This document shows, piece by piece, positions 6,364-27,065 of a stretch of DNA of 58,443 bases (positions are counted from its first letter, which is position 1; the number at the start of each line of letters is the position of its first letter). Source of the DNA: an uncultured Candidatus Saccharibacteria bacterium (lineage in GTDB: Bacteria; Patescibacteriota; Saccharimonadia; Saccharimonadales; JALRHH01); NCBI GenBank assembly GCA_964474995.1, contig CAYYUY010000006.1, forward strand, positions 1 to 58,443, in the 5' to 3' direction. Below the pieces are notes generated by a model, which saw only the letters and a program-made list of their open reading frames with translations, did not search any database and was not told where the DNA came from. Made by a program: the position numbers and the translations under genes.

Positions 6364-8106
6364 ATGAAGCGACTCATCAAACAAACACTGAAAACCAAGA
6401 AAAAAACACTACTCCGTAATATTGCCATTCGACTCTATGGTTCAAGTTTGCTTGAGACGATGATGTTGGCCACATTCGTTTTGTCGCGCTACTACCAGAA
6501 CATCGATTTCAGTTATCCATCAGATATAGTGCTGCCAACGCTGTTATTTGCAATACTTTCAGCAGTTATATATTACCCATTTCGGCTGTTGCTTGGCCGG
6601 GCAACACCAGCCCACATCAGCAGCTTACTGCTCGGTTATTTGCTATACAGTTTCGGTCAACAATCATTACTTGCGCCACTCGCAAAAATGCTTTTGCCAA
6701 AGAGTTTTGAAACTAGTTTTTCAACCGCATTACTTCGCACGATATTCCTTGCAATCATGTGTGGAGTAATTGGCTATGCGATCAAGCTAGCATTGAAACG
6801 AAAAGAACTCCGGCAGCTCCCGCTTGGCAAGATCATGGCCTTTGCTGTTAGTTTTTTGTTTGTAACACAGGTCGCAAAGGTCGGGCTCAAGATTGTGCAG
6901 ATCTGGCCAGAACTGACTTATCACTACAACTATGTCCAACCGAAACAAGATAAGAGCAAAGCCACGACCAAGCCAAATATTTACTACGTGGTATTTGACC
7001 GTTATGGAAACAGTGAGCAGCTTGCCACACACTTTGACATCGACAACGCACCGCTCAATAGCTTTCTTGAGAGTGAGGGCTTTGTGAACCGTCCCGGAGC
7101 GTATGCCAACTATCCATTCACGATGTCCTCAATCACTTCGACGCTTGATATGAATTATCATACTGATCTTGGGGCTAAGTTTGGCAAGGATGGCTATCAA
7201 ACAGCATTTCCGTATCGAGCCATATTCAATAATCCAGGAGTCGCGCAAACACTCAGACAAGATGGCTACACGTACAACCAGCTCAGCTCATGGTGGGACT
7301 TTACGCGTGTTGGTATTCAGGCAGACACGAGCCCCACGCAGTCATTTAGGCTTCGTACATTTGGTATGACTATTTTTGTGAGTGATCTCAATAGAGACAT
7401 CATTAACAAGAGTATTTTTTCACCACTGCTCAAAAAAGGCGTAACGGTTGGTAATACCGCACTCGTCAAATACGACCGCGACAACAACCCACACCAAAAC
7501 CTTGACCTACAGATGGATACGCTCAAGACAATTGCGTCTAATAAGACTGATGGCCCACAATTTACCTTCACGCACATACTCGTGCCGCATCCACCATATG
7601 TTTTTGGTCCAGACGGCAGTGACACGACCTATGATCATGAATCAAATGACAATAATGTAGACGAAACGGTTAAGTACAAAAATTCTGTCACCTATATCAA
7701 CACTCGTATGCAGGAAATGGTGAAAGACATTCGAACGAATGATCCGTCTGCGGTCGTTGTCATTCAGTCTGATGAAGGACCATATCCAAAAGAGTTTAGG
7801 GGCAGTATCACGCCACAGCACTACTATGATCCCGCTACGCTACCAATCACTGATATGCAGCAAAAGTTTGGTGTTCTCGCCAGTTATTACATGCCAGGTG
7901 TATCAAAGGAAGTAGTGGCAGCCAACATCACTGCGTCGGTCAACCCACTACGATTTGTATTGTCGAATTATCTTGGCTACGATCTGCCGATGCTGCCAAA
8001 CTGCCAATTTAGCACTGGCAATAAGTTCCAAGTTTATAACTATCAATTAGTTACTGAAAAGTTGACCGGCAAGCCAGCACCAGCCGAATGTAAACAGTAT
8101 CAATAA
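6364..8106 (+). CDS. Polytopic membrane protein with sulfatase-like (alkaline phosphatase superfamily, LTA-synthase/phosphotransferase-like) ectodomain
   Basis: About 5 N-terminal TM helices, then YYVVFDRYG, HILVPHPPYVF and VVIQSDEGP blocks typical of sulfatase-like transferases. Confidence 0.7.
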   Translation: MKRLIKQTLKTKKKTLLRNIAIRLYGSSLLETMMLATFVLSRYYQNIDFSYPSDIVLPTLLFAILSAVIYYPFRLLLGRATPAHISSLLLGYLLYSFGQQSLLAPLAKMLLPKSFETSFSTALLRTIFLAIMCGVIGYAIKLALKRKELRQLPLGKIMAFAVSFLFVTQVAKVGLKIVQIWPELTYHYNYVQPKQDKSKATTKPNIYYVVFDRYGNSEQLATHFDIDNAPLNSFLESEGFVNRPGAYANYPFTMSSITSTLDMNYHTDLGAKFGKDGYQTAFPYRAIFNNPGVAQTLRQDGYTYNQLSSWWDFTRVGIQADTSPTQSFRLRTFGMTIFVSDLNRDIINKSIFSPLLKKGVTVGNTALVKYDRDNNPHQNLDLQMDTLKTIASNKTDGPQFTFTHILVPHPPYVFGPDGSDTTYDHESNDNNVDETVKYKNSVTYINTRMQEMVKDIRTNDPSAVVVIQSDEGPYPKEFRGSITPQHYYDPATLPITDMQQKFGVLASYYMPGVSKEVVAANITASVNPLRFVLSNYLGYDLPMLPNCQFSTGNKFQVYNYQLVTEKLTGKPAPAECKQYQ

Positions 8107-8128: not shown

Positions 8129-9418
8129 ATGGCCGAAGATTCACTACTACTTACTATCCAAAACGCTACTAAATCACTTGGTGCCAAGCTACTGCCAAAG
8201 CGCAGTGAAGTACTGTCTGTTGATGATGTACGTGCTGCTCGTGAATACATCGCAGGTTACTGGGAAAACCTTGAACGATTTCACCCAAAGGATGACGAAA
8301 GTCTACTTGGCTTGCCAAAGCCATATCTCGTTCCAGCATTTGAGGTCGGGCACGACTTTGACTTCAATGAAATGTACTACTGGGACAGTTACTTTATGGT
8401 ACAGGGTCTACTCGACGAAGCGCACAAAGAACTTGTCATGGGAATCCTTGAAAACTTATTGAGTCTTCAAAAGCGGTTCGGTGCTATTCCCAACGCTTCG
8501 CGAACTTACCTAACGGGCCGCTCGCAGCCACCGTTCCTGACGAGCTTTATTTTTGATGTCTACGATGCATACGATTTGCCCGAAAAGTGGCTGCAGGAAT
8601 CTATAGCTATTGCCAAACAAGAGTACCAGACTGTTTGGTTGGGTACGACCAAGCCAAACGCCCGGCTGGTCCACCAAGGTTTATCACGCTACTACGACGT
8701 GAATTATTTGCACGATCTTGCCGAAGCAGAAAGTGGCTGGGACATGACAACTCGTTTTGGCCGTAAGGCACTCAATTATTTGCCAATCGATCTCAATGCA
8801 TTGCTGTACAAGTACGAAGCTGATTTTGCACGTGCTGCCCGAATTGCTGGTGATGCGCGTGAGGCCGCCAAATGGGAAGTAGATGCTCGTCACCGCAAAG
8901 AAACCATAGACAAGCTGATGTGGAGTAATTTACGCGGATTGTATTACGATTACAATTTTGCCAAAGATAAACGCGGCGGTGTTGCATCGTTAGCTGCCTT
9001 TTACCCAATGTGGGCTGGGATGGTCGACGAGAAACAAGCCAAACAAATGGTCAAGGCGCTCGGTCGCTTTGAGGCGCGCGGAGGACTGACAACCACGGAC
9101 ACAGCACCGCTTAACCGCATGGTTCCGGGTGCTATGCCAACGCAGTGGGCCTACCCCAACGGCTGGGCGCCATTACAATATTTGGTCATCCGCGGGCTTG
9201 AACGCTATGGCTATCATGCTGATGCCAGTCGCTTGGCTCGTAAATGGCTCAAGACAAACCTCGACTGGTTCAATCGTAATGGTGTCTTCCTCGAAAAATA
9301 TAATGTCGTACAGCCGGATAAGCCGCCAATGAAAGGCGTCTATCCTTCGCAGACTGGCTTTGGTTGGACTAATGCGGTGTTTGAACGACTTTGCCAAGAA
9401 TACATCGACAAAAAATGA
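8129..9418 (+). CDS. Alpha,alpha-trehalase (GH37), cytoplasmic
   Basis: Signature blocks YYWDSYF, QPPF, SGWDMTTRF, LEKYNV and GFGWTNAVF. No signal peptide. Confidence 0.85.
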   Translation: MAEDSLLLTIQNATKSLGAKLLPKRSEVLSVDDVRAAREYIAGYWENLERFHPKDDESLLGLPKPYLVPAFEVGHDFDFNEMYYWDSYFMVQGLLDEAHKELVMGILENLLSLQKRFGAIPNASRTYLTGRSQPPFLTSFIFDVYDAYDLPEKWLQESIAIAKQEYQTVWLGTTKPNARLVHQGLSRYYDVNYLHDLAEAESGWDMTTRFGRKALNYLPIDLNALLYKYEADFARAARIAGDAREAAKWEVDARHRKETIDKLMWSNLRGLYYDYNFAKDKRGGVASLAAFYPMWAGMVDEKQAKQMVKALGRFEARGGLTTTDTAPLNRMVPGAMPTQWAYPNGWAPLQYLVIRGLERYGYHADASRLARKWLKTNLDWFNRNGVFLEKYNVVQPDKPPMKGVYPSQTGFGWTNAVFERLCQEYIDKK

Positions 9419-13991: not shown

Positions 13992-14020
13992 TTGCAACTA
14001 CCACTGGTGGTAGGTATACT
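13992..14020 (+). promoter_or_regulatory. Near-consensus promoter TTGCAA-N17-TATACT upstream of the ATPase operon
   Basis: Hexamers at 13992-13997 and 14015-14020. Argues against the 13989 start in the ORF track. Confidence 0.55.
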
Positions 14021-14066
14021 GATAATGGTTAAAATTATCATGATTAACACAAAAATTAGACATTAC

Positions 14067-14888
14067 ATGAGATTGCCGCGTTTGCTGGCGTTATCAGCGC
14101 TGGCGCTACTCATTGTGGTGAGTCTCCGTCATCCTCTCAGCGCACAGACTGTGACGCAGGGTTACAACACTGACCAGACAATCCAGCGTGGACTGATTGT
14201 CAACCTTAAGAAAAACGACGGTACAAAGGTCGAGCTGAGTACCACAAACTCAATCGATCATATTTTGGGTGTAGCCGTTGATGCTAATGATGCGCCGGTT
14301 ACGTTGTCGAGCGATGCCGCCAAGGTATTTGTGGCCACGACTGGCCATTTTGATGTGATCGTCAGCACCCAAGGGGGCGCTATCAATACAGGTGATTATA
14401 TTACGGTGTCTGGGCTTGATGGCATTGGCATGAAAGCCGGCACCAAAGAACCAATAGTTGTTGGTCGAGCACTAGCATCATTTGACGGGAAGGCAGGTGC
14501 TATCAGTACCACCAGTGTCAAAGATAGCACTGGAGCCCAACACCCGGTGAGTATTGGTCGCATTCAAGTTGATTTGAGTGTTGCCCGTAATCCTCATCTC
14601 AAAGCTCCAGAAGCCAATATCCCTGAGTTCTTGCAAAAAGCAGCCACCGCAATTGCTGGAAAACCGGTAAATGCGGTTCGTATTTACCTTGGTTTGACGA
14701 TTTTTCTCATCAGCACGATTGTGGCGACGAGCTTGCTGTATGGTGGTGTTCGCAGTGGTATTATCTCTATCGGTCGTAACCCGCTGAGCAAGAAATCGAT
14801 CATCAGAGGCATGATGCAGGTAGTGGTCGTTGGATTAACTATTTTCATAAGCGGTATTTTTGCGGTATATTTACTATTAAAGATTTAG
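14067..14888 (+). CDS. Secreted beta-rich ectodomain fused to a C-terminal ATP-synthase c-subunit-like two-helix hairpin; first gene of the ATPase operon
   Basis: Signal peptide MRLPRLLALSALALLIVVSLRHPLSA|Q. C-terminus is TM1-GRNPLSKK-TM2, resembling the c-subunit loop (ARQPD in E. coli, ARNPSLK in mitochondria). Stop lies 22 nt before the b-like gene. Start could be 14025 or 13989. Confidence 0.75.
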   Translation: MRLPRLLALSALALLIVVSLRHPLSAQTVTQGYNTDQTIQRGLIVNLKKNDGTKVELSTTNSIDHILGVAVDANDAPVTLSSDAAKVFVATTGHFDVIVSTQGGAINTGDYITVSGLDGIGMKAGTKEPIVVGRALASFDGKAGAISTTSVKDSTGAQHPVSIGRIQVDLSVARNPHLKAPEANIPEFLQKAATAIAGKPVNAVRIYLGLTIFLISTIVATSLLYGGVRSGIISIGRNPLSKKSIIRGMMQVVVVGLTIFISGIFAVYLLLKI

Positions 14889-14910: not shown

Positions 14911-15594
14911 GTGAGCTTAGAGGTATTAATCGGCGTACTAGCAGCAATCGGTCTTATGACCGGTCTGTTCATCTGGGCTGTCATCCGTAAAAGCGCTGAA
15001 CCTTCGACGCCAAAAACTCCAAAAGTACCTAAAGTGCAGGCCGTATCGACTCACGATAAAGGCAATACGACAGGTAGCGCCGTCGATGATGCCAATACCA
15101 AGCTTGCCAACGATAATGTCGAACATATTTTCAACGATGAATTCCGCGAAGAACTCCGTAACCGTGGGCGCCTTCACTTCGAGAAAATCATCGGTGAAAA
15201 TGCCATGTTCCTACAGCAGGACTTGCGACTCACGACTTCTCAACTTAATGAATACATGAAGACTGAGATCACCAACAAGCTCGAAGAAGAATTCGCTAAA
15301 TACGAAGAATCAATCACTGATGCCAAACAAATGGCACTCGATTCAATCAACAAAACCCAAGAAGCTATCGAACAGCAACGTCAACTGATGAGTCAACAGA
15401 TTCAAACAGAGCTGGCGACCGAAAAATCACGTCTCGTGAAGCGCTTCGAAGACAATATGGCTGATATCGTCAACCACTACGTGTTGGCAGCTATTGGCGA
15501 CCAGATTGACCTTAATGACCAGCTCGAATACATTCTGAGTGACCTGGAGTCTAACAAGGCGGCCATAATTAGGGACATTACCGATGGATCATAA
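14911..15594 (+). CDS. atpF: F-type ATPase peripheral-stalk subunit b-like protein
   Basis: GTG start after GAGGTGG. Single N-terminal TM helix, Pro/Lys-rich linker, then long coiled-coil. Operon position matches b. Confidence 0.6.
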   Translation: MSLEVLIGVLAAIGLMTGLFIWAVIRKSAEPSTPKTPKVPKVQAVSTHDKGNTTGSAVDDANTKLANDNVEHIFNDEFREELRNRGRLHFEKIIGENAMFLQQDLRLTTSQLNEYMKTEITNKLEEEFAKYEESITDAKQMALDSINKTQEAIEQQRQLMSQQIQTELATEKSRLVKRFEDNMADIVNHYVLAAIGDQIDLNDQLEYILSDLESNKAAIIRDITDGS

Positions 15595-16135
15595 GACTGA
15601 TAGCTATTTGCAGCTACCAATTATGGTAATCGGTCGCATTGATGTCGGCCGATTGCTGCGTGAAATAGAAGCTCTCAATAACTTCATGGCTGCGGCAGCA
15701 ATTCGCGAGCCAGGTACTTCTATCAAGCCACCAAAAACCAGTAGGCTCTTTGATGAAATCATCGAGATCAACAGTCTCAATGTTTTACTCGAAACTGACC
15801 GCGCTCGACTACTGGACTTCTTGCAGACCGTCTACAAAGAAGCTCCACTCATGCATATTAGTTTTGGTGCCGACCCTTCGCCGTTGTTTATGCAGCGTCT
15901 GATGACATGGATGCGTCAAAATATTCATACCTTAGTACTCGTGCAAATCGGCCTCCAGCCAAACATTGGCGCTGGCTGCGTGATTCGCACCAACAACAAG
16001 TACTTTGATTTGAGTCTTCGTACCAGGTTCCTCGAAAGCCGAGACAAGCTAGCAGTCGCACTACGGGGCGAATCCAAGCCTGACGTACCTGAAACGTCTG
16101 TCACTGCAGTACCAACAGCCGGAGCGGCCGCGTGA
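15584..16135 (+). CDS. atpH: F-type ATPase delta (OSCP)-like subunit
   Basis: C-terminal block [28 protein letters not shown] parallels the delta motif (IGG..I..G....D.S). Overlaps the b-like gene by 11 nt. Confidence 0.6.
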
Positions 16136-17648
16136 AAAGTGGCAACCAACACTTCGACAAACTCATTGCGAGTGGCAACCCAATTGGTGAAGTCATCGCT
16201 GTCGATAAGTTCCTTGTCCAGGTTCATGGCATGCAACCATGTGCTATCCATGCACTCGTAATGTTTGAAGACGGCAGTAAGGGCTTTGTCCACCAAGTCG
16301 CAACTGATCATGTGGTGATTTTGCACCTTGGCTCCGACACGCTCAGTGTTGGTATGGTTGCTGTGCTCCAGCACCAGGAACTTGTCTGTAAAGTCGGCAA
16401 AGACTTCATTGGCCGCGTGGTGACCGTCACCGGTGAACCACTTGATGGCAAAGGTCCGATTGCTGCTGATGCCGTATGGCCCGTTTTCAATCAAGCACCA
16501 CCGCTCTATGAGCGTAAACTGCTCAGTGATCAGCTTGAGAGTGGCGTAACCGCCATTGACTCACTGTTTCCAATCGTCCGTGGCCAGCGTATGGCGCTAC
16601 TGGGTGATGGTAAGTCTGGTAAAAGTACATTGGTTACCCAGATGGTTATCAACCAGAAAAATACCGACCAAGTTGTTGTCTATTGTTTGATTGCCAAGCG
16701 TCGTACCGATGTTGACCAGTTGCTCACTCGCCTCCAAGAAAATGGTGGTATGGAAAAGGCAATTGTAGTGGTGAGTACCATGTTCGAGTCGCTCATTATG
16801 AGCTATATCGCGCCGTATGTTGCGTGTGCGATGGCCGAATATCTTTGGCAAAAACTCAATCAAGACACGATCATTATCTACGATGACCTTACCAGTCACG
16901 CACATGCCTACCGTGAAGTTGCCCTGATGTCTGGTGTGAGCCCAGGACGTGACTCATACCCAGGTGATATGTTCTATGCCCACTCGAGCCTACTTGAACG
17001 CGCCGGACGTCTCGACAGCACCGGTGCACACCTGACGAGTATCCCTGTAGTTAACGCTGCCGGTGGCGATATCACGGCTTATCTCCCAACGAACATTATG
17101 TCTATTACTGATGGTCAGTGGATCTTGGATATGGATATTTTCCGTAATGGTATCCGCCCAGCCCTAAACATTGGTCTATCGGTGACTCGTGCCGGTGGTA
17201 TCGGTCACAACAAGCGCCAAAAGGCCTTGGCGGCCGAAACACTAAAGTTACTGGCCGATTTCCGTACTGCAGAAGAGTTTTCACACTTTGGTTCCGAACT
17301 TGCAGCTGAGGCAAAACGCGCACTCGAGACAGGCCATCGTTTGTTTGAGCTTATGACCCAAAGCCCCGGCGATACATATTCGCTGGTAGCTCAGCAGCTA
17401 ATGATGGATATCGTACTGCACATCGAGGCGGGTGCTAGCCTAGATATTAGCGCTATGAAGCTCAACATTGTCGAGATTGCCGCCACCGTCAAAGAAGAGG
17501 CAGACTATCAACAAGCTCATGATGCGCTCAAGGCCAAAGCAGTGACCGGTATACCAGCACCTGCGCCACCGAAGCCCGCAGAACCAGCCGCTGATGCTGC
17601 CCAAACGGATGACAAAGACAAGAAAGACGACAAAAAAGAAGGCAAGAA

Positions 17649-17652
<4 letters not shown>
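16132..17652 (+). CDS. atpA: F1 ATPase alpha subunit (divergent)
   Basis: P-loop [30 protein letters not shown] and ITDGQWIL blocks. Lys/Asp/Pro-rich C-terminal tail. GTG overlaps the delta-like stop. Confidence 0.85.
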
Positions 17653-19816
<2,164 letters not shown>

Positions 19817-19818
19817 CC

Positions 19819-20124
19819 ATGGCAAATGAGAGCGGCGAGCCAGTACTAGAAAAGACCGATTCCAGGATCGAAGATGGCATAAATATGCACGTCAAAGTCT
19901 ATGCGCCGTTCAAGACGTACTTTGATGGTATGGCGCTCAGCATCTCGGCTATCAACGATACGGGCGCGTTTGACATCTTGCCAAAGCACCACAACTTTAT
20001 GACACTGATTTCTCCGTGCGACATTATTGTTCGTACCGGCGGAGACAAAGAAGAAAAGATCAAGATCAACCGTGGCATTATGCATGTAAAGGCAGACGAG
20101 GTCATCGTCTTTCTAGACGTCTAA
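19819..20124 (+). CDS. atpC: F1 ATPase epsilon subunit, beta-sandwich domain only
   Basis: GAFDILPKHHNFMTL matches the epsilon G.lGILp.H motif. At 101 aa there is no C-terminal helical hairpin. Confidence 0.75.
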   Translation: MANESGEPVLEKTDSRIEDGINMHVKVYAPFKTYFDGMALSISAINDTGAFDILPKHHNFMTLISPCDIIVRTGGDKEEKIKINRGIMHVKADEVIVFLDV

Positions 20125-20305: not shown

Positions 20306-21301
20306 TTAGTCGATTGCGACGTAGTCAAAGCTGAAGCTTTGGCCGGCAGGTGCTGGGTTGGTACTGCAAATACTGAAGTTACTACTACTGCGGTTGATGT
20401 AGTAGTTCAGACCACCCGCTGCGGAGCCAACAGGACTTAGGGCGATATGTGGAGTGCCATTGAAACGATTAGTGAAGTTGACGGTTACAAAACAGCCAGC
20501 ACCAGGGGACCCACCAATATTGATGGTCACCGTACCAGCAGTGTCAGTACCGCTTACCGAGCTTGTACCACCGTTACCCAGGGCACCACCGTCTGATTTG
20601 CCTGGGGTGCCACCACCCGCGTCAATATGACGAATTAGTTGTAAGTCTCCGGCCAAGATAAGGCTTTGAACGTTGAGTACTGGCGCAGAAAGTGGGCCGC
20701 CGAAGGTCGCACCACCAGTACTATTGATACCTTTGACGTTTACTTGACCTTGTATGGTCATATTGCCAGCCACTGAGAGGCTATTGGCGGTAATCTGATC
20801 GAATGTGCTCGTACCTGATACAGAAATACCCGGTAGGCTCAGCGCGCCACCGACTTTGATTGCGCCAGCTACATCCAAGCTGTCACGGATGAGGACTTTA
20901 CCAGAGAATATCGCATTTGATTCAATTGTAAGTGTTTGTTTGGGGTCACCAACTTTGGCATCACTACCCTGCAGCTGTGCAAGCGCTTCTTTGGTTAATG
21001 GTTGGGTTGTAATGGTGGTAGGTGCGTCAGCTTTTTTACCTTTTTGGAATGATATAAACACCACGCCAAGCGCCAGCACGAATATGAATATGAATAGCAA
21101 AAAATAAATATTGAGATGGGTTATCAGACCACGTACGCGCTGGCCGATACTCTGACTCTTTTTGGTCTCGAGCTTTTCTACTGGTTCTGTTACAGAGCCA
21201 GTAGACTCAAGGCTACTTGGATCATAGTCGTTTGACCCGGTAGGGGTCTCAGTTGTCTCAGGACTAGTAGGTTGTTCTTCTTTTGATTTATCGTCGTCCA
21301 T
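20306..21301 (-). CDS. Membrane-anchored protein with extracellular beta-helix-like repeat region
   Basis: Acidic N-terminal tail, one TM (IYFLLFIFIFVLALGVVFISF), Gly/Ser/Val-rich short repeats (GAIKVGGALSLPGISVSGTSTF...) and a C-terminal globular domain. Confidence 0.75.
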   Translation of the reverse strand: MDDDKSKEEQPTSPETTETPTGSNDYDPSSLESTGSVTEPVEKLETKKSQSIGQRVRGLITHLNIYFLLFIFIFVLALGVVFISFQKGKKADAPTTITTQPLTKEALAQLQGSDAKVGDPKQTLTIESNAIFSGKVLIRDSLDVAGAIKVGGALSLPGISVSGTSTFDQITANSLSVAGNMTIQGQVNVKGINSTGGATFGGPLSAPVLNVQSLILAGDLQLIRHIDAGGGTPGKSDGGALGNGGTSSVSGTDTAGTVTINIGGSPGAGCFVTVNFTNRFNGTPHIALSPVGSAAGGLNYYINRSSSNFSICSTNPAPAGQSFSFDYVAID

Positions 21302-21407
21302 ACAAGGCGCTTTTGCTTAGAATAATTACCTTTTATGATACACGACCTCTTGGAAAAAACATAAACAGATTGCAACATTGGTGCAAATCGGGCACAATTG
21401 ATATCAA

Positions 21408-22157
21408 ATGAGGCTCGTGAAACAAACAAGGGTAGTTATGTCGCTAGTAGCTGTTTTGGTACTGTGTTTGCCGTTGCGCGCGCTGGCTGACCAATCTTCC
21501 TCGACAAATTACAAAGTTGATCAGACATTCTTTGGCTCAGGTGGTGATACTGAGAATTCATCAGCAAACTACAAAGCCAAGACAACCGTTGGTGAGCTTG
21601 GTGTTGGTAACTTCTCAAGTGCCAACTATCAAGCATTTGCCGGGTTTAATACTACGGATGAGCCATACCTTGAATTTGTAGTAACTGGTAGCAATATTGA
21701 TCTCGGTTATCTGAGTACTTCACAAGTCGCAACCGCCAACGGTCAGTTCTTTGTTCGAGCATGGCAATCAGGTGGTTATGTCATCCGTACGGAGGCAAAT
21801 CCACCGACAAATACTGGCCCGAGTGGGCATCAATTAACACCTATGACAGGTGGTGGATCGGTCCCAGGTACCGAACAATTCGGAATGAATCTTGTTAAAA
21901 ATACTAACTTTTGTGGTGTGGGTTGTAATCTGGGTGCGGATGAGCAGCAGAATAATCAATTCTCGAGCGGATCGGTAGCAAGCGGATACAATACCCCTGG
22001 AGTATTTAAATATAACAAGGGTGATATTATTGCTGAAGCAAACCAGAGCTCGAGCGTAACAGTCTATACATTATCGTATCTATTTAATATTAGTGGCATC
22101 ACGCAGTCTGGTGAGTATAAATTTAGTCATGTGTTAGTGGCTACGGCTACATTCTAG
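21408..22157 (+). CDS. Secreted pilin-like protein, family member 1 (249 aa)
   Basis: Signal peptide ...LPLRALA|DQ. Three S-x-N-Y-K/Q repeats. Shares EQFGMNL and the C-terminal SGEYKFSHVLVATATF-COOH motif with the next three genes. Confidence 0.8.
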   Translation: MRLVKQTRVVMSLVAVLVLCLPLRALADQSSSTNYKVDQTFFGSGGDTENSSANYKAKTTVGELGVGNFSSANYQAFAGFNTTDEPYLEFVVTGSNIDLGYLSTSQVATANGQFFVRAWQSGGYVIRTEANPPTNTGPSGHQLTPMTGGGSVPGTEQFGMNLVKNTNFCGVGCNLGADEQQNNQFSSGSVASGYNTPGVFKYNKGDIIAEANQSSSVTVYTLSYLFNISGITQSGEYKFSHVLVATATF

Positions 22158-22254
22158 GTAATTTTGGTTCAATTTTTTGCAAAAATAACGGTTATCTGTG
22201 CAGATGTTGTGGAAAAGTAGAGCATAAGCCAAATCAACCCCTGTTGTTGGCAAT

Positions 22255-22283
22255 TTGCTAATTCGGTTATGGTTTGCTACTGT
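22255..22283 (+). promoter_or_regulatory. Promoter ATTTGCTA-N17(TGn)-TACTGT for paralog A
   Basis: Same TTGCTA -35 context and spacing as at 23588. Confidence 0.4.
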
Positions 22284-22342
22284 CAGGGTGTCTTCATAAA
22301 ACAACAAGGCATAAGTAAGTAAAAACAATCAGGAGGCCTCAC

Positions 22343-23491
22343 ATGTTCCACCTTCGTCAAACGAAGCGGCTTGTCTATCCATTGACCGCCGTTTCCTTAA
22401 TCGTAGCGACCGTTCTGCCGGTACTGCAGTCTTCGACTGCCAATGCCGCGCAAGTACAATCGCGTAGCATTCAGATTAGTGAATCAGCGGCCAGCGCTAC
22501 GAGCGTGAAATATCACGTCTCATTCAAGACGGCCACCACAGGTTCAGTTGGCGGTTACGTCCTCGAATTCTGTGATAACAGTCCAATTATCGGCGACACG
22601 ACGTGTGGCGCGATTGCTGGGTTTAATATTGGCGCTCCAACAGTGACAAACCAGTCGGTCGGCGGGGCTGGTATAGAAGATCTTTCGACCTTCACAACGG
22701 CCTCAGCGCTAACAACGCATACACTTGCGTTGTCTGCAGGTTCCGCTGTCGCAATGACAAGTGGTAACGTCGCCTCATTTGACCTAACGTCAGTTACGAA
22801 CCCATCTACGGTGAACCACACCTACTATGCTCGTGTATACACTTACGGTAGCGCTGGTGGTGCAACTGGCTACTTGCTAGCGAACCCAAGTGCAGGTGCA
22901 GCAGTTGTAGATTCAGGTGGTTTTGCACTCAGTACTGCTCAGCAAGTTACCGTTACTGCCAAGGTCCAGGAACAATTAAGTTTCTGTGTCTACACTGGTG
23001 CTAACTGTGCTGCGGGTGGTAGTACTGTGAACCTCGGTGACACAAACGGCGTTCTAGCTCAGTACAACACGTCATATCAAGACGCTTCAACCAAGTTTGA
23101 TATAGCAACGAACGCTCAAACAGGTGCGATTGTGAACCTCAAAATGGACACTCTCAAATCTGGCGCAAATTCAATTGCTGCTCAGGGTGTAGCCTGTACG
23201 GCTGACTCTATTGCAACGAATGTTGCACAGTTCGGAGTCCGTGTTAGTAATGTGGGTGCTGCACCATTGGTTGCTACGTCACCGTACGACTGTGCTGCGA
23301 CCAATCACACGCTCGATACCAACAACACAACTGGTACCACCTCTCCATACGGCCAAACAGTTGCCAATACGACCTCACAGCCATTGGCTACCACAACTGG
23401 TACTGTCGAATTCTCAGCCAAGGCTGCTTTGACAACCCCAGCTGGTATTTACACAACGACCGCGAACTTCATCGCGACAGGTACGTTCTAG
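22343..23491 (+). CDS. Secreted pilin-like protein, paralog A (382 aa)
   Basis: SD AATCAGGAG and signal peptide ending ANA|AQ. Two conserved Cys pairs, QFG motif, C-terminus PAGIYTTTANFIATGTF-COOH. Confidence 0.85.
   Translation: MFHLRQTKRLVYPLTAVSLIVATVLPVLQSSTANAAQVQSRSIQISESAASATSVKYHVSFKTATTGSVGGYVLEFCDNSPIIGDTTCGAIAGFNIGAPTVTNQSVGGAGIEDLSTFTTASALTTHTLALSAGSAVAMTSGNVASFDLTSVTNPSTVNHTYYARVYTYGSAGGATGYLLANPSAGAAVVDSGGFALSTAQQVTVTAKVQEQLSFCVYTGANCAAGGSTVNLGDTNGVLAQYNTSYQDASTKFDIATNAQTGAIVNLKMDTLKSGANSIAAQGVACTADSIATNVAQFGVRVSNVGAAPLVATSPYDCAATNHTLDTNNTTGTTSPYGQTVANTTSQPLATTTGTVEFSAKAALTTPAGIYTTTANFIATGTF
23369..23490 (+). repeat. 122-nt block identical to 24713-24834 (3' ends of paralogs A and B)
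   Basis: Perfect identity by direct comparison. Further identical blocks of about 40-50 nt lie upstream. Confidence 0.9.
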
Positions 23492-23517
23492 TAAATAAAC
23501 GTTAAACGTTTTAGCGT

Positions 23518-23552
23518 AGAAAGAACCGCCCACAAGGTGGTTCTTTCTATTT
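23518..23552 (+). terminator. Rho-independent terminator between paralogs A and B
   Basis: 13-bp stem AGAAAGAACCGCC / GGTGGTTCTTTCT with loop CACAA, then ATTT. Confidence 0.65.
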
Positions 23553-23587
23553 AGCTTAAGCGCATTATTATTCCTGTGGATAACTAT

Positions 23588-23616
23588 TTGCTACATAATC
23601 ATAAGCGTGGTAAGAT
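23588..23616 (+). promoter_or_regulatory. Promoter ATTTGCTA-N17(TGn)-TAAGAT for paralog B
   Basis: Hexamers at 23588-23593 and 23611-23616. Parallels the paralog A promoter. Confidence 0.4.
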
Positions 23617-23677
23617 TCCGGCATTAGGTCACTAATATAAAAACGTAAACAAAAATAAAAATCAGGAGAATATTAAG

Positions 23678-24835
23678 ATGAAAAAGCTCAAGCAGCTTGC
23701 AAGACGCAGCGCGAGTATAACCAACGCGTTGGTTTTGATCGTAGCTACGCTGTTGCCAATCCTTGCATTGCAGGGTACAGCAACAGCAGCGCAAGTGACG
23801 ACGCGTTCCATACAGATGAGTAATTCATCAGGTGGCGCCACGGGTGTGACATACCATGTTTCATTTAAGATGGCATCGGTAGCATCACAAAACATACAAG
23901 GTATTGTGGTTGATTTCTGTGATAACAGTCCAATTATTGGCGACACCACTTGTTCTGCACTTCCAGGTTCGTTTAGTACCGGGACAACTGTTGCTAACCA
24001 ATCAAGCCTCGCTGGTGCTGATATATCAACCTTCACCACCGTTACAGCCCTTAGTCATGGAATCTCTTTGACGGCAGCAGCACCAGTTAGTATGACATCG
24101 TCAGCTAATGCCGTATCGTTTGATATTACAGCTGCGACAAACCCATCGACCAACAACCACACCTTCTACGCTCGTATTTACACATACGCAACAGCTGCGG
24201 CTGCAAACGGCTACACCGTAGCTAACCCAAGTGTTGTAGGCGCATATGTTGATGCAGGCGGTGTTGCACTCAGTACAGCACAGCAAATTACCGTTACTGC
24301 AAAGGTCCAGGAACAGTTAACCTTCTGTGTCTACACTGGTGCTAACTGTGCCGCGGGTGGTAGTACAGTAGCTCTTGGTGACGCAAACGGTGTTCTTGCA
24401 AACTACGCAAGTGCCTATCAAGACGCTTCAACCAAGTTTGATATAGCAACGAACGCTCAAACAGGTGCAGTGGTAAATCTCAAGATGGACACTTTGAAAT
24501 CTGGTGGTAACTCAATTGCCCAACAGGGTGTAGCTTGTGCTGCAGACTCCACAACGACCAGCGTTGCACAATTCGGTTTACGTGTCAGTAACGTTGGCGC
24601 TGCTCCACTCGAGACGATCACTGGCGCTTACGACTGTGGCTCTGGTAATCACATGCTTGATACCAACAACACAACTGGTACCACCTCTCCATACGGCCAA
24701 ACGATCGCTGACACGACCTCACAGCCATTGGCTACCACAACTGGTACTGTCGAATTCTCAGCCAAGGCTGCTTTGACAACCCCAGCTGGTATTTACACAA
24801 CGACCGCGAACTTCATCGCGACAGGTACGTTCTAA
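23678..24835 (+). CDS. Secreted pilin-like protein, paralog B (385 aa)
   Basis: SD AATCAGGAG and signal peptide ending ATA|AQ. C-terminal half nearly identical to paralog A, N-terminal third divergent. Confidence 0.85.
   Translation: MKKLKQLARRSASITNALVLIVATLLPILALQGTATAAQVTTRSIQMSNSSGGATGVTYHVSFKMASVASQNIQGIVVDFCDNSPIIGDTTCSALPGSFSTGTTVANQSSLAGADISTFTTVTALSHGISLTAAAPVSMTSSANAVSFDITAATNPSTNNHTFYARIYTYATAAAANGYTVANPSVVGAYVDAGGVALSTAQQITVTAKVQEQLTFCVYTGANCAAGGSTVALGDANGVLANYASAYQDASTKFDIATNAQTGAVVNLKMDTLKSGGNSIAQQGVACAADSTTTSVAQFGLRVSNVGAAPLETITGAYDCGSGNHMLDTNNTTGTTSPYGQTIADTTSQPLATTTGTVEFSAKAALTTPAGIYTTTANFIATGTF
24713..24834 (+). repeat. 122-nt block identical to 23369-23490
   Basis: Direct comparison. 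Confidence 0.9.
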
Positions 24836-24853
24836 GCGTATACAATATGAAGT

Positions 24854-25912
24854 ATGCAAATTTTGGGAAAGACTGACCGCTCTCTAAAACTTGTAAGCAT
24901 ACTTACAGCAATGGCACTCCTATTCTCGGGAGTGCCATTTGCGCGTCTTGCATCTGCAGCCCAGCTGATTAATAGGTATGATAAGTTATCTAGTTCTGAG
25001 GCTTCTGCTGTCGCAACGCATGAAGTTGGCTTTACTTTCGGTAATCTTGCTGTTCCTGTTGGTTCGATAAGTTTAGAATTTTGCGGCAACGATCCCTTGC
25101 CAAATACACCTTGCACACCGCCGAGTGGTTTTGATGCAACAGGTGTTAGTCTGGATGATCAGGCAGGAGAAATTGGGTTTAGTGTTGACCCAAGCTCAAG
25201 TGTAAACAAGATAATTTTGACAAGGCCAGCTGCGTTGCCGACAAGTACCCCATCAACGTATACCCTAGGGAATATTATCAATCCAGATACCATCGGAACA
25301 TTTTATATACGATTACAAACGTTTACGAGTACTGATGGCACAGGTGTTGATATTGAGGCGGCAGGACTTGCTCTTTCGACAAGTGCGAAATTCACTGTCA
25401 GCACTGAGGTCCCACCGTATCTTACATTTTGTTCAAGTGTCACTATATCTGGAGATGACTGCACGTCCGCTACAAGCTTTCTTATAGATATGGGTGAATT
25501 TGTGGCCACGAAATCAAGTAGTGCAACTTCTGAGTTTGTGGTCCAAACAAATGCACAGTCAGGCTATAGCGTTACACTCTCGGGCAGCACGCTAACATCT
25601 GGTAATAACACCATAACTGCATTAGCAGTACCTACCACGCCACAGAAGGGGACACCCCAGTTTGGTATGAACTTACGAGCTAATTCCAACCCATCCATCG
25701 GTGCTGATCCATCAGGACTCGGGCTTGGTATCGTGGGTGCATCTTATGGGGTGCCGAATAAGTTCACGTTCAGGAATGGCGATATTATTGCTTCAGCAGG
25801 GGCGCCTGACTATGAAAAGTACACAGTGACCTACATTGCCAATGTTAACTCAACCCAAGCTCCAGGCTTTTACGCAACCACTATCTCCTTCATATGTTTG
25901 GCAAACTTTTAA
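24854..25912 (+). CDS. Secreted pilin-like protein, family member 4 (352 aa)
   Basis: Signal peptide ...RLASA|AQ. Shares the AAQ..R...S.S.AS N-terminal motif, LEFC-x10-C, TNAQSGYSVTLSG, PQFGMNL and C-terminal APGFYATTISFICLANF-COOH. Confidence 0.8.
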   Translation: MQILGKTDRSLKLVSILTAMALLFSGVPFARLASAAQLINRYDKLSSSEASAVATHEVGFTFGNLAVPVGSISLEFCGNDPLPNTPCTPPSGFDATGVSLDDQAGEIGFSVDPSSSVNKIILTRPAALPTSTPSTYTLGNIINPDTIGTFYIRLQTFTSTDGTGVDIEAAGLALSTSAKFTVSTEVPPYLTFCSSVTISGDDCTSATSFLIDMGEFVATKSSSATSEFVVQTNAQSGYSVTLSGSTLTSGNNTITALAVPTTPQKGTPQFGMNLRANSNPSIGADPSGLGLGIVGASYGVPNKFTFRNGDIIASAGAPDYEKYTVTYIANVNSTQAPGFYATTISFICLANF

Positions 25913-25971
25913 ACGCCATGCTACCATAAGCGCATACAAAATTTGTTTAATAAACAAGAGGAACGGGAAGA

Positions 25972-26949
25972 ATGAAAAAACACATCAGACAGTTGATGGT
26001 TGGCTTGGTGAGTGCCACCTTTATGGCAGTCGCGCTTGTAGTTTCACCTGCAAAGGCAGCAACACAAAATCAGAGTGCTAATGGTTTTCGAATCTCGCCA
26101 ATTCGCAGTGAGCTAACTATTGAAAAAGGTAAAAGAACTACACTGACTATCAGTGTAGAAAACCCAACTAACGCGGCGACTACGGTGCGTGCTGACGTGC
26201 TTGATTTTGTTGCTGGTTCAGATGAGTCAGGGCAACCTCGATTGATCCTTGATAACAAAACACCAGCACCAAAGAACGACTTCAAAAAGCTTGTTGGCTC
26301 TGTGCCTGACTTAGAACTCAAGGCTAACGAACGAAAATCAGTAAATATTACCATTGCAGTACCTTCAGACGCCTCGTCTGGCGGCTACTATGGTGCTATT
26401 CGTTTCGTACCCGCAAGCGCCAGTGACCAATCTACTGTTGGTGTGGTTGCTAGTGTCGGTTCACTTGTTCTAGTAACCGTACCAGGTAACTTAAATGAAC
26501 AGCTTAACCTTGTTCAGCTTAGTGCAGGCCAAAACGATAAAACAAAAAGCTTTATCACTAAAGGCAAAGTTGATGTTGTTACAAGACTTAAAAACACGGG
26601 GGACATTCATGTTAAGCCTTTTGGCCGTGTAGATGTAAAGAACATGTTTGGTAAAACAGTTGCTACGTTTGAACTCAACAATACCGAGCCACGAGCCAAT
26701 GTTCTGCCTGATACCACTCGCAAATTTACGAATAATTTGTCAAACAAAAAATGGTTTGGTCGTTACACAATTGAAGCCAACATTGGTTATCAGCAGGGTA
26801 GTGGAAATATTTTGAGCGCTAAGTCTACTTTCTGGTATGTACCTACTTGGGCATTAATAATCTTAGGTGTACTACTCGTCATCATCGGTTTGGGTATCTA
26901 CCTACTCTTCCGCAAATATGGCAAAAAAGGCCATCGTTCACGGAAATAG
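25972..26949 (+). CDS. Signal peptide plus two Ig-like modules plus C-terminal TM anchor; DUF916/DUF3324-like (Csc/WxL-cluster type) or PapD-like protein
   Basis: FRISPIRSELTIEKGKRTTLTISVENPTN and VPSDASSGGYYGAIRF blocks. Second module has RLKNTGDIHVKPFGRVDV. C-terminal TM followed by KYGKKGHRSRK. Confidence 0.8.
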   Translation: MKKHIRQLMVGLVSATFMAVALVVSPAKAATQNQSANGFRISPIRSELTIEKGKRTTLTISVENPTNAATTVRADVLDFVAGSDESGQPRLILDNKTPAPKNDFKKLVGSVPDLELKANERKSVNITIAVPSDASSGGYYGAIRFVPASASDQSTVGVVASVGSLVLVTVPGNLNEQLNLVQLSAGQNDKTKSFITKGKVDVVTRLKNTGDIHVKPFGRVDVKNMFGKTVATFELNNTEPRANVLPDTTRKFTNNLSNKKWFGRYTIEANIGYQQGSGNILSAKSTFWYVPTWALIILGVLLVIIGLGIYLLFRKYGKKGHRSRK

Positions 26950-26977
26950 ATAGGTTCTGAAGAACTAAACAACTAAA

Positions 26978-27008
26978 CAAGGGCTACTGAGGTAGCCCTT
27001 GTTTTTTA
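26978..27008 (+). terminator. Rho-independent terminator
   Basis: CAAGGGCTAC-tgag-GTAGCCCTTG followed by TTTTTT. Confidence 0.8.
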
Positions 27009-27065
27009 TCCCTGTTACGTTATGATTGATGTAAGTAAAGCATAACAAGTTAAAGCAAAATAAAT

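What the first reader, a model, noticed from the sequence alone, without database searches (positions are those of the whole stretch)
14067..14888. Ectodomain fused to a c-subunit-like hairpin that lacks the ion-binding carboxylate
The C-terminal 80 aa read TM1 (VRIYLGLTIFLISTIVATSLLYGGVRSGIISIG), loop RNPLSKKS, TM2 (IIRGMMQVVVVGLTIFISGIFAVYLLLKI). The R-N-P loop matches the c-subunit polar loop that contacts gamma/epsilon (ARQPD in E. coli, ARNPSLK in mitochondria). Neither helix contains Asp or Glu. Aligned by eye, the position of the essential c-ring carboxylate is Leu/Thr. The cleavable signal peptide plus a roughly 190-aa Gly/Thr/Val-rich domain would lie outside the cell, which fits c-subunit topology (both termini out, loop in). 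If it oligomerises like c, the result is a ring carrying extracellular domains, coupled to F1 but unable to carry protons.
Basis: partly seen in the sequence, partly recalled or inferred. Interest (0 to 1): 0.8.

Follow-up and report, generated by a model that had tools for sequence, protein, structure and literature searches.

The report
Carboxylate-less c-like rotor subunit with ectodomain
In Saccharibacteria, the first gene of a second, F1-like ATPase operon that has no subunit a encodes a secreted phage-cement-like domain fused to a hairpin shaped like the ATP-synthase c subunit but lacking the proton-binding acid, so the complex probably burns ATP to do mechanical work at the cell surface, not to move ions.

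Summary
ORF 14067-14888 (more likely starting at 14040, 282 aa) encodes four parts: a signal peptide, a beta-rich ectodomain, a short linker helix, and a C-terminal hairpin of two 34-35-residue helices joined by G-R-N-P.

G-R-N-P is invariant or nearly so in 132 representatives of a large Saccharibacteria-only family. The c-ring carboxylate position (18 residues after the Pro) is always aliphatic. The hairpin-only AF2 model hits only F-type c subunits in the top 43 PDB matches (rmsd 1.2-2 A). Sequence-profile support is weak (E 0.02; hhalign P 0.002).

The gene heads a block of c-like, b-like, delta-like, alpha, gamma, beta and epsilon genes. This order is kept in 80 of 80 species loci. The block keeps together when the flanks change, or the gene moves to just after epsilon. 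One lineage has it unlinked. There is no subunit a and no canonical c in the window. The F1 subunits score below NCBI's curated cut-offs but keep their catalytic motifs.

The ectodomain resembles phage cement and minor-capsid proteins.

Best reading: a non-ion-translocating, ATP-hydrolysing derivative of F1Fo whose c-like ring carries an extracellular crown. It is a new variant of the "F1-like X0" or non-respiratory F-type ATPases. Ring formation, rotation and function are untested.

The parts
13992..14020 (+). Promoter-like site (TTGCAA-17-TATACT) upstream of the c-like gene
   Evidence: Consensus scan only; not evidence of function.
14040..14888 (+). Gene for the c-like subunit ('X'). Residue numbers below count from 14067.
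   Evidence: ORF. The N-terminus 'MINTKIRHY' aligns with homologues' 'MQKTKIRQL', and the commonest family length is 282 aa. The family has 2194 hits and 1413 clusters at 50% identity.
14067..14144 (+). Signal peptide (residues 1-26), with cleavage after ...LSA before Q27
   Evidence: Hydropathy. The A|Q..Y motif is conserved in homologues. There is no Cys, so it is not a lipoprotein.
14145..14594 (+). Beta-rich ectodomain (residues 27-176), like phage cement and minor-capsid proteins
   Evidence: AF2 strands at 30-174. Foldseek matches phage capsid decoration chains in the PDB (E 2e-4) and viral models (E 7.6e-9). Pfam PF23982 hits 34 of 111 members (best 8.5e-6); PF22758 and PF09956 also hit.
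14595..14672 (+). Linker with a short helix (residues 177-202; conserved N175-P176, P186, F188-L189, A197-G198-K199-P200-V201)
14673..14777 (+). Helix 1 of the hairpin (residues 203-237). Small residues are conserved at 209, 216, 220, 227, 230/231, 234 and 236.
14772..14783 (+). Invariant G-R-N-P turn (residues 236-239), predicted to face the cytoplasm
   Evidence: Present in 130-132 of 132 representatives. It aligns with the RNP/RQP loop of c subunits. Loop net charge is +4.
14781..14882 (+). Helix 2 of the hairpin (residues 239-272). L257 (14835-14837) occupies the register of the c-ring carboxylate.
14911..15594 (+). b-like subunit: N-terminal TM helix, Pro/Lys linker and a long helix. Its cytoplasmic segment is very highly conserved.
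   Evidence: Architecture and gene position. There are only weak family hits and no PDB hit. Mean column identity is 63%, with 55 invariant columns.
15584..16135 (+). delta/OSCP-like subunit (C-terminal domain recognisable, N-terminal domain reduced)
   Evidence: Pfam OSCP E 0.007. With a profile of 41 orthologues, 15 of the 23 PDB hits are delta/OSCP chains, including the ten best (E 0.015-0.5).
16132..17652 (+). alpha-like subunit
   Evidence: PF00006 4.7e-68. TIGR00962 scores 381 bits against a cut-off of 484. The Walker A motif GDGKSGKS is present.
17649..18512 (+). gamma-like subunit
   Evidence: PF00231 7e-31. TIGR01146 scores 90 bits against a cut-off of 194.
18509..19816 (+). beta-like subunit (435 aa). 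Walker A GGAGVGKT and GERIRE are intact; the DELSEED region reads NELSPSD.
   Evidence: TIGR01039 scores 416 bits against a cut-off of 463, and the protein also hits the Mycoplasma MSC_0618 and MMOB1670 models.
19819..20124 (+). epsilon-like subunit: the beta-sandwich domain only, with no C-terminal helical hairpin
   Evidence: PF02823 covers residues 23-99 of 101.

Best explanation
What it is. The gene encodes the membrane rotor subunit of a non-respiratory, ATP-hydrolysing derivative of F1Fo found in Saccharibacteria. It descends from, or at least has the shape of, the c subunit: a hairpin of two long helices joined by the cytoplasmic R-N-P turn that in real c-rings docks the foot of gamma/epsilon. 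It differs from c in two ways. It has lost the membrane carboxylate. It has gained, at the N-terminus of the inner helix, a Sec-exported domain of about 150 residues that resembles phage cement proteins.

How it probably works.
- Several copies assemble into a c-like ring whose outer face carries a crown of these domains.
- The co-transcribed alpha3beta3 hexamer has intact catalytic motifs. Its epsilon lacks the inhibitory helices, and its DELSEED loop has lost part of its acidic character. It hydrolyses ATP and turns, or twists, gamma/epsilon and the ring against a stator made of the delta-like and b-like proteins.
- With no subunit a and no carboxylate, no ions are moved. The output is mechanical, delivered to the cell surface. 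The likely recipient is the conserved neighbouring set of secreted and wall-associated proteins.

Shown here: the protein's anatomy, conservation and fold; absence of the carboxylate; operon linkage; absence of a and of a canonical c from the operon and the window; intact catalytic motifs.

Inferred: descent from c, ring formation, coupling to gamma/epsilon, rotation, and the surface function.
For: - Fold: the hairpin-only AF2 model (pLDDT 94.1) has only F-type c subunits among its top 43 PDB matches, with rmsd 1.2-2.0 A. The same matches appear with the full-length model.
- Loop: G-R-N-P is invariant or nearly so. The best PDB sequence hit of the hairpin profile is a c subunit in exact RNP register, and hhalign gives the same register. 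The motif is absent from about 449 other hairpin-like segments.
- No carboxylate anywhere in the family at P+16 to P+20.
- Position: the gene sits immediately upstream of the b-like gene, where atpE sits in canonical operons. There are 22 nt to the next gene, and the genes from b to gamma overlap the next gene by 4-11 nt.
- Linkage: the order X-b-delta-alpha-gamma-beta-epsilon is kept in 80 of 80 species loci. It is kept at 32-34% identity (L084, L090). It is kept with unrelated flanks (L091). In L087 and L088 the gene sits just after epsilon.
- The delta-like protein is a real OSCP relative.
- alpha, beta, gamma and epsilon all score below NCBIfam equivalog cut-offs and partly match the Mycoplasma F1-like models.
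- No other R[QN]P hairpin ORF exists in the 58 kb window.
- Literature: some complete Saccharibacteria genomes carry two alpha/beta/gamma sets but one a/b/c set (PMC12592800, Table S5). A non-respiratory F-type ATPase whose beta clusters with Saccharimonadia sequences has been described in Omnitrophota (PMC10066038). Mycoplasma type 2 and type 3 F1-like X0 ATPases include a protein with a signal peptide, a large domain and two C-terminal TM helices.
Against: - Sequence homology to c subunits is not statistically established. There is no PF00137 hit for the window protein at E<=1. Only 2 of 72 hairpins hit it weakly. hhalign probability is 12%. A canonical c profile ranks the protein first among the window's ORFs, but at E 0.13.
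- c subunits are the most abundant free TM hairpins in the PDB, so a top Foldseek rank is partly expected for any hairpin of this length. Individual E-values are 0.06-1.
- Ring formation and contact with gamma/epsilon were not modelled.
- The ectodomain hangs on the helix that forms the inner ring in c-rings, so 8-15 domains of about 16 kDa must fan out through a linker of about 28 residues. This is plausible but unchecked.
- Without subunit a, it is unclear what the b-like stator is braced against.
- One lineage (L085/L086) has the gene away from any ATPase gene.
- I could not check whether the window's own genome has a canonical F1Fo.
Confidence: 0.55

Rival explanations
1. The hairpin is a static membrane anchor. 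It acts as a monomer or small oligomer that tethers the F1-like head or the b/delta stalk, or passes conformational strain to the ectodomain without rotating. Its likeness to c is either convergent or inherited without the ring.
For: Sequence similarity to c is weak. No subunit a is present to give a rotor-stator interface. The b-like protein has an unusually conserved segment near the membrane, which could bind the loop directly. In AF3 models of the Mycoplasma type 3 complex, the subunit with the same architecture was placed away from gamma/epsilon, and a 12-TM protein contacted them instead.
Against: An invariant G-R-N-P turn is exactly the element that contacts gamma/epsilon in c-rings. 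The small-residue face on helix 1 fits tight homo-oligomeric packing. gamma and epsilon are retained, and no other membrane partner is encoded in the operon.
Confidence: 0.22
2. The protein is a minor subunit that joins the canonical c-ring of the organism's ordinary F1Fo, as the carboxylate-poor c1 subunit does in the hybrid Acetobacterium woodii ring. It would lower the ion-to-ATP ratio or add an external handle.
For: The best Foldseek hit is the A. woodii c-ring. Some complete Saccharibacteria genomes have a canonical a/b/c set alongside a second alpha/beta/gamma set.
Against: The gene travels with its own full set of b-like, delta-like, alpha, gamma, beta and epsilon genes, even into new genomic contexts. 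Bins of order CAILAD01 show alpha/beta/gamma without any recognisable a/b/c.
Confidence: 0.07
3. The gene is a surface protein unrelated to the ATPase. It is merely syntenic with the ATPase genes and really belongs to the neighbouring secreted-protein cluster.
For: In L085/L086 it lies away from ATPase genes and next to two paralogues of the window's secreted protein family. The wider region (TatD, cysteine desulfurase-like gene, bactofilin-like gene) is also syntenic in most loci, so adjacency alone is weak evidence.
Against: The seven-gene block stays intact when both flanks change (L091). When the gene moves, it moves to the other end of the same ATPase operon. Spacing to the b-like gene is about 20-60 nt on the same strand. 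The c-like fold and RNP loop would have no explanation.
Confidence: 0.08
4. The operon is a decaying ATP synthase, and the gene is a degenerate c subunit with no function.
For: The carboxylate and subunit a are missing. The F1 subunits score below family cut-offs.
Against: All seven reading frames are intact in 80 species. alpha and beta are 60-85% identical across those species. The loop is invariant, and the Walker and catalytic motifs are intact.
Confidence: 0.03

Closest known systems
F-type ATP synthase subunit c (AtpE, Pfam PF00137)
   Same: A two-helix hairpin of about 70 residues that ends at the end of helix 2. It has a tight cytoplasmic R-(N/Q)-P turn; 'AIGRNP' is identical to the Chloroflexus c loop. 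Helix 1 is rich in small residues. The gene sits just upstream of the b gene. The model superposes on c subunits at 1.2-2 A.
   Different: No membrane carboxylate (Leu/Ile/Val/Phe at the position). A signal peptide and an ectodomain of about 150 residues are fused to the N-terminus. It falls below Pfam detection. No subunit a accompanies it.
Mycoplasma type 2 and type 3 'F1-like X0' ATPases, Protein 5 (MSC_0620 / MMCAP2_0577 / MMOB1650)
   Same: A divergent alpha/beta/gamma/epsilon set without a or c. One subunit has a signal peptide, an external domain and two C-terminal TM helices joined by a short loop. The complex is a non-respiratory ATP hydrolase linked to surface functions: gliding, or antibody cleavage by MIB-MIP (PMC3369863, PMC12994834).
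   Different: The Mycoplasma clusters have a 12-TM protein and a small cytosolic protein, lack b and delta, and have a different gene order. Protein 5 is 85-127 kDa. The window protein has no hit at E<=1 in NCBIfam, including its Mycoplasma F1-like models. Whether Protein 5's hairpin has an RNP loop could not be checked here.
Non-respiratory F-type ATPase of Omnitrophota (Seymour et al. 2023, PMC10066038)
   Same: A divergent F1 set in ultra-small, host-dependent bacteria. Its beta subunit was reported to cluster with Saccharimonadia sequences, and a role in attachment or motility was proposed.
   Different: In Omnitrophota it lies next to type-4a pilus genes. No pilus cluster flanks it here. 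No c-like subunit with an ectodomain is mentioned in the passages I searched.
Carboxylate-deficient rotor subunits: Acetobacterium woodii c1 and V-type proteolipids
   Same: c-type hairpins that have lost the ion-binding carboxylate yet still build a rotor ring.
   Different: Those are duplicated 4-TM subunits that retain at least one carboxylate per protein or per ring, work with a subunit a or I, and have no ectodomain.
Phage cement, decoration and minor-capsid proteins (Pfam PF23982, PF22758, PF09956)
   Same: The ectodomain shares their beta fold.
   Different: Here the domain is a Sec-exported part of a cellular membrane protein. The window's own sequence does not reach E<=1 against these models. 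TM-scores are modest (0.4-0.66).

Membership tests
ATP synthase subunit c (PF00137) | Hairpin of two transmembrane helices, about 70-90 residues | tested here: met
   AF2 helices 203-237 and 239-272. The top 43 Foldseek matches are all c subunits.
ATP synthase subunit c (PF00137) | Conserved polar loop R-(Q/N)-P facing F1 | tested here: met
   GRNP is present in 130-132 of 132 representatives. It aligns in register with c subunits. The orientation is inferred from the signal peptide and the +4 loop charge.
ATP synthase subunit c (PF00137) | Membrane-embedded Asp or Glu in helix 2 that binds H+ or Na+ | tested here: not met
   P+18 is Leu, Ile, Val or Phe in 110 of 130 representatives (Gly or Met in most of the rest). 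There are no acidic residues at P+16 to P+20 in 129 of 130.
ATP synthase subunit c (PF00137) | Scores above the family's profile threshold | tested here: not met
   No hit at E<=1. 2 of 72 members hit weakly. hhalign probability is 12%. The reverse search gives E 0.13.
ATP synthase subunit c (PF00137) | Assembles into a homo-oligomeric ring that contacts gamma/epsilon | not testable with these tools
   No multimer prediction was available. The only indirect sign is the small-residue face on helix 1.
Canonical F1Fo ATP synthase operon | Subunit a (AtpB) present | tested here: not met
   None is present in the operon, in the window, or within +/-10 kb in 80 loci. The rest of the genome could not be searched.
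Canonical F1Fo ATP synthase operon | alpha, beta, gamma and epsilon reach the NCBIfam equivalog cut-offs | tested here: not met
   Scores against cut-offs: alpha 381/484, beta 416/463, gamma 90/194, epsilon 45/67 bits.
Canonical F1Fo ATP synthase operon | Peripheral stalk (b and delta) | tested here: inconclusive
   The delta C-terminal domain is recognised. The b-like protein is assigned only by architecture and position. The N-terminus of alpha is shortened.
Mycoplasma F1-like X0 ATPase (types 2 and 3) | Divergent alpha/beta/gamma/epsilon without canonical a and c | tested here: met
Mycoplasma F1-like X0 ATPase (types 2 and 3) | A 12-TM Protein 1 and a small cytosolic Protein 2; no b or delta | tested here: not met
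   The operon has b-like and delta-like genes and no 12-TM protein. The comparison is with PMC3369863.
Mycoplasma F1-like X0 ATPase (types 2 and 3) | Protein 5: signal peptide, large external domain, two C-terminal TM helices | tested here: inconclusive
   The architecture is the same.
Phage cement / minor capsid protein folds (PF23982, PF22758, PF09956) | Profile or structural match of the ectodomain | tested here: inconclusive
   34, 8 and 7 of 111 family members hit these models, with a best E of 8.5e-6 to 1e-6, but the window's own protein does not. Foldseek gives E 2e-4 against the PDB and 7.6e-9 against BFVD, with TM-scores of 0.4-0.66.

The most novel reading that the evidence does not exclude
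A rotary F-type motor turned inside out in purpose. ATP hydrolysis in the cytoplasm spins a proton-blind c-like ring whose extracellular crown of phage-cement-like domains transmits torque through the membrane to cell-surface proteins. This would power attachment, movement or surface remodelling of an epibiotic bacterium. It would also be the evolutionary intermediate between F1Fo and the Mycoplasma F1-like X0 machines.
Probability: 0.3. Interest if true: 0.9.

Novelty: new variant of a known kind. Interest (0 to 1): 0.75.

Why it matters
Rotary ATPases are known to couple ATP to ion flow. The Mycoplasma F1-like X0 machines showed that the F1 head can be reused for surface tasks, but how force crosses the membrane there is unknown.

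This Saccharibacteria system keeps the canonical gene order, a delta/b-like stalk and a recognisable c-like hairpin, so it is the easiest version to read. It names a concrete candidate for the transmembrane transmission element: a carboxylate-free ring with an external crown.

It also bears on an open question in CPR/Patescibacteria biology, namely why non-respiring epibionts keep F-type ATPases. It warns that 'F-type ATPase present' calls in metagenomic surveys may merge two different machines.

The family is large (at least 196 GTDB species and 1413 clusters at 50% identity) and none of the listed homologues carries a Pfam domain or a meaningful name.

Tried and rejected
- Direct Pfam and NCBIfam scans of the protein gave nothing useful. 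PHROGs gave nothing.
- A phmmer search of the PDB with the full protein gave only noise.
A 10-sequence alignment worked.
- A profile of the b-like protein found no solved relative.
It ranks the protein first among 459 window ORFs, but at E 0.13, so I do not claim sequence-level homology.
- The cluster look-up gave no names or accessions.
- One literature search was mis-specified and useless.
- The four paralogous secreted proteins downstream have no Pfam match even at E<=1.
- Considered and rejected: AtpI/UncI, AtpZ and AtpR-type small Fo accessory proteins (no ectodomain, different TM number, no RNP loop; from my own knowledge); a lipoprotein (no Cys at the cleavage site); a pseudogene or decaying operon (conservation).
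- I could not determine whether the window's genome, or the complete chromosome OY970327.1 (L025), also carries a canonical atpB/atpE.
Full report
**Observation**

Hydropathy shows an N-terminal signal sequence and two C-terminal hydrophobic segments.

AlphaFold2 with 111 homologues gives a confident model (mean pLDDT 94.8). It has a beta-rich domain at residues 30-174, a short helix at 187-197, and two long helices at 203-237 and 239-272 joined at R237-N238-P239.

The more likely start is the ATG at 14040 (282 aa). The extra residues, MINTKIRHY, align with the N-termini of homologues, whose commonest length is 282 aa. A promoter-like site lies at 13992-14020.

**The family**

The protein belongs to a large family in which none of the listed homologues carries a Pfam domain or a meaningful name. 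It has 2194 hits among the 90%-identity clusters and 1413 clusters at 50% identity. Every named source is Saccharibacteria, Saccharimonadales or Patescibacteria. The one exception is L019, labelled Limnocylindria, which looks mis-binned.

In 132 representatives that are 32-62% identical to the query:
- G236, R237, N238 and P239 are present in 131, 132, 130 and 131 sequences, and L240 in 128.
- 114 of 130 have no Asp or Glu in either membrane core.
- The only recurrent acidic residue is Glu at position 251, near the cytoplasmic end (11 sequences).
- The five positions around the c-ring carboxylate register (P+16 to P+20) are never acidic, apart from one Asp.
- The loop region carries a mean net charge of +4. 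Together with the conserved A|Q signal-peptidase site, this puts the loop inside and the large domain outside.

None of about 449 other hairpin-like segments in 1.3 Mb of six-frame ORFs has R-[QN]-P in its loop.

**Is the hairpin c-like?**

By structure, yes. The hairpin-only model (pLDDT 94.1) was searched against 350,542 PDB chains. Its 43 best matches are all F-type c subunits, from bacteria, chloroplasts and mitochondria. TM-scores reach 0.90 and rmsd is 1.2-2.0 A over 67-71 residues. The full-length model recovers the same c subunits.

By sequence, only weakly:
- A profile of 72 hairpins finds the Chloroflexus aurantiacus c subunit as the best of 177,635 PDB sequences, at E 0.022. 'AIGRNP' aligns on 'AIGRNP', and the c-ring Glu aligns on the family's Leu.
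- Pfam PF00137 does not hit the window protein at E<=1 and hits 2 of 72 members weakly.
- The reverse search ranks the protein first in the window, but at E 0.13.

There is also a caveat on the structural result. c subunits dominate the free TM hairpins in the PDB, so a high rank is partly expected.

I therefore call the hairpin c-like in fold, loop, length and gene position. Descent from atpE is probable but not proven.

**Operon**

The gene is followed on the same strand by six others:
- a b-like protein (one TM helix plus a long helix);
- a delta-like protein, for which 15 of the 23 PDB hits of a 41-orthologue profile are delta/OSCP chains, including the ten best;
- alpha, gamma, beta and an epsilon that has only its beta-sandwich domain.

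The genes from b to gamma overlap the next gene by 4-11 nt.

All four F1 proteins score below NCBI's curated equivalog cut-offs and partly match the Mycoplasma F1-like models. The Walker A motifs, the catalytic GER..E and the alpha arginine-finger region are intact. The DELSEED loop reads NELSPSD (the comparison with E. coli is from my own knowledge).

There is no subunit a and no ordinary c in the operon. The 58 kb window holds no other R[QN]P hairpin ORF.

**Linkage**

A scan of one genome per GTDB species found 196 species with the peptide [SA]IGRNPLSK. In the 80 loci kept, the order X-b-delta-alpha-gamma-beta-epsilon is present wherever the contig extends.

The wider neighbourhood is syntenic too, so I looked at divergent members (32-34% identity):
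- L084 and L090 keep the order.
- L091 keeps the seven-gene block between entirely different flanks.
- L087 and L088/L089 have the gene moved to just after epsilon.
- L085/L086 have it away from any ATPase gene. There it lies divergently next to two paralogues of the secreted protein family that sits downstream of the operon in the window.

Linkage is therefore robust but not absolute.

**Ectodomain**

Foldseek matches it to capsid decoration or cement chains of tailed phages in the PDB (E 2e-4, TM-score 0.4-0.58). It also matches viral models in BFVD (best E 7.6e-9).

Scanning all 111 aligned members against Pfam gives PF23982 (XM1 gp53 minor capsid) in 34, PF22758 (phage cement) in 8 and PF09956 in 7. 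The window's own sequence stays below detection.

In phages this fold packs against other proteins on the capsid surface, or sits in long tail-fibre-like proteins (the latter seen). This suggests a docking or lattice-forming role (inference).

**Context in the literature**

- Saccharibacteria are reported to have complete canonical F1Fo clusters with H+-type c subunits (PMC9296517).
- A KEGG table in PMC12592800 shows one a/b/c set but two alpha/beta/gamma sets in Ca. Saccharimonas aalborgensis, GWC2_44_17 and Ca. Mycosynbacter. TM7x and RAAC3 have single sets. Several CAILAD01 bins have alpha/beta/gamma without a/b/c. This fits the window's operon being a second, non-canonical ATPase. I could not verify that for these genomes.
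- Seymour et al. (PMC10066038) described a non-respiratory F-type ATPase in Omnitrophota whose beta clusters with Saccharimonadia sequences, and proposed a role in attachment or motility.
- Mycoplasma type 2 and type 3 F1-like X0 ATPases drive gliding and are required for the MIB-MIP antibody-cleavage system. They contain a subunit with a signal peptide, a large domain and two C-terminal TM helices (PMC3369863, PMC12994834).
- No paper I searched describes a c-like hairpin fused to an ectodomain.

**Mechanism proposed**

The protein forms a c-like ring. Its cytoplasmic GRNP loops dock gamma/epsilon. ATP hydrolysis turns or twists the ring against the delta/b-like stator. With no carboxylate and no subunit a, no ion is carried, and the work is delivered to the external crown and from there to surface proteins.

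Weak points:
- Ring formation was not modelled.
- The ectodomain is attached to what is the inner helix in c-rings.
- What braces the stator is unknown.

Rivals are a static anchor or strain transmitter, a minor subunit of the canonical ring, a merely syntenic surface protein, and a decaying operon. They are ranked in the report sections.

**Verdict**

It is a new variant of the known F1-like, non-respiratory F-type ATPases, not a new kind. It gives a concrete and testable candidate for how such machines reach across the membrane.

Noticed in passing
window 20306-27995; also L084, L085, L087: A conserved surface-protein cluster lies beside the ATPase operon. It holds a bactofilin-like single-TM protein on the minus strand (20306-21301), four paralogous secreted proteins of which the first (21408-22157) ends ...ATATF (21408-22157, 22343-23491, 23678-24835, 24854-25912; no Pfam match), a protein with a WxL-interacting peptidoglycan-binding domain (25972-26949), and a PKD protein (27066-27995). 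The cluster stays next to the operon at 32% identity. In L085 two of the paralogues flank the c-like gene although the ATPase genes are absent there.
   Followed up: partly
window 14911-15594: The b-like protein is far more conserved than b subunits usually are. Mean column identity is 63%, with 55 invariant columns. The stretch DVEHIFNDEFREELRNRGRLHFEKIIGENAMFLQQDLRLTTSQLNEYM, just after the TM helix and linker, is nearly invariant. This suggests a specific partner near the membrane. No solved relative was found.
   Followed up: partly
window 18509-20124: The beta subunit is short (435 aa) and its DELSEED loop reads NELSPSD. Epsilon (101 aa) lacks the C-terminal helical hairpin that inhibits hydrolysis in ordinary enzymes. 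Both fit a dedicated hydrolase.
   Followed up: partly
window 17500-17652 and 16060-16135: The alpha subunit ends in a Pro/Ala-rich and then Lys/Asp-rich low-complexity tail (...[32 protein letters not shown]). The delta-like protein ends in a Pro/Thr/Ala-rich tail. The lengths of these proteins vary between species.
   Followed up: no
L019 (DATHJH010000036.1): This contig belongs to a MAG labelled Candidatus Limnocylindria (Chloroflexota). It carries the full Saccharibacteria-type locus at 55-82% identity, from TatD through the cysteine desulfurase-like gene and the c-like gene to epsilon. The contig is probably mis-binned.
   Followed up: no
P0028: One JGI homologue of the c-like protein is named '6,7-dimethyl-8-ribityllumazine synthase'. 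This looks like an annotation error.
   Followed up: no
window 666-2594, 6364-8106, 32740-34443: Three large ORFs (642, 580 and 567 aa) have no Pfam match. The 580-aa one has several hydrophobic segments at its N-terminus. The 567-aa one follows an FtsA/PilM-like gene at 31463-32743.
   Followed up: no
window 8129-9418: A trehalase gene (PF01204, 5e-92) lies upstream, and its position is conserved in L001. This is a notable sugar-scavenging enzyme for a reduced epibiont genome.
   Followed up: no
L083 2118-2729: In one divergent lineage, an IS200/IS605-type Y1 transposase gene lies immediately upstream of the c-like gene. This is a possible cause of the local rearrangement.
   Followed up: no
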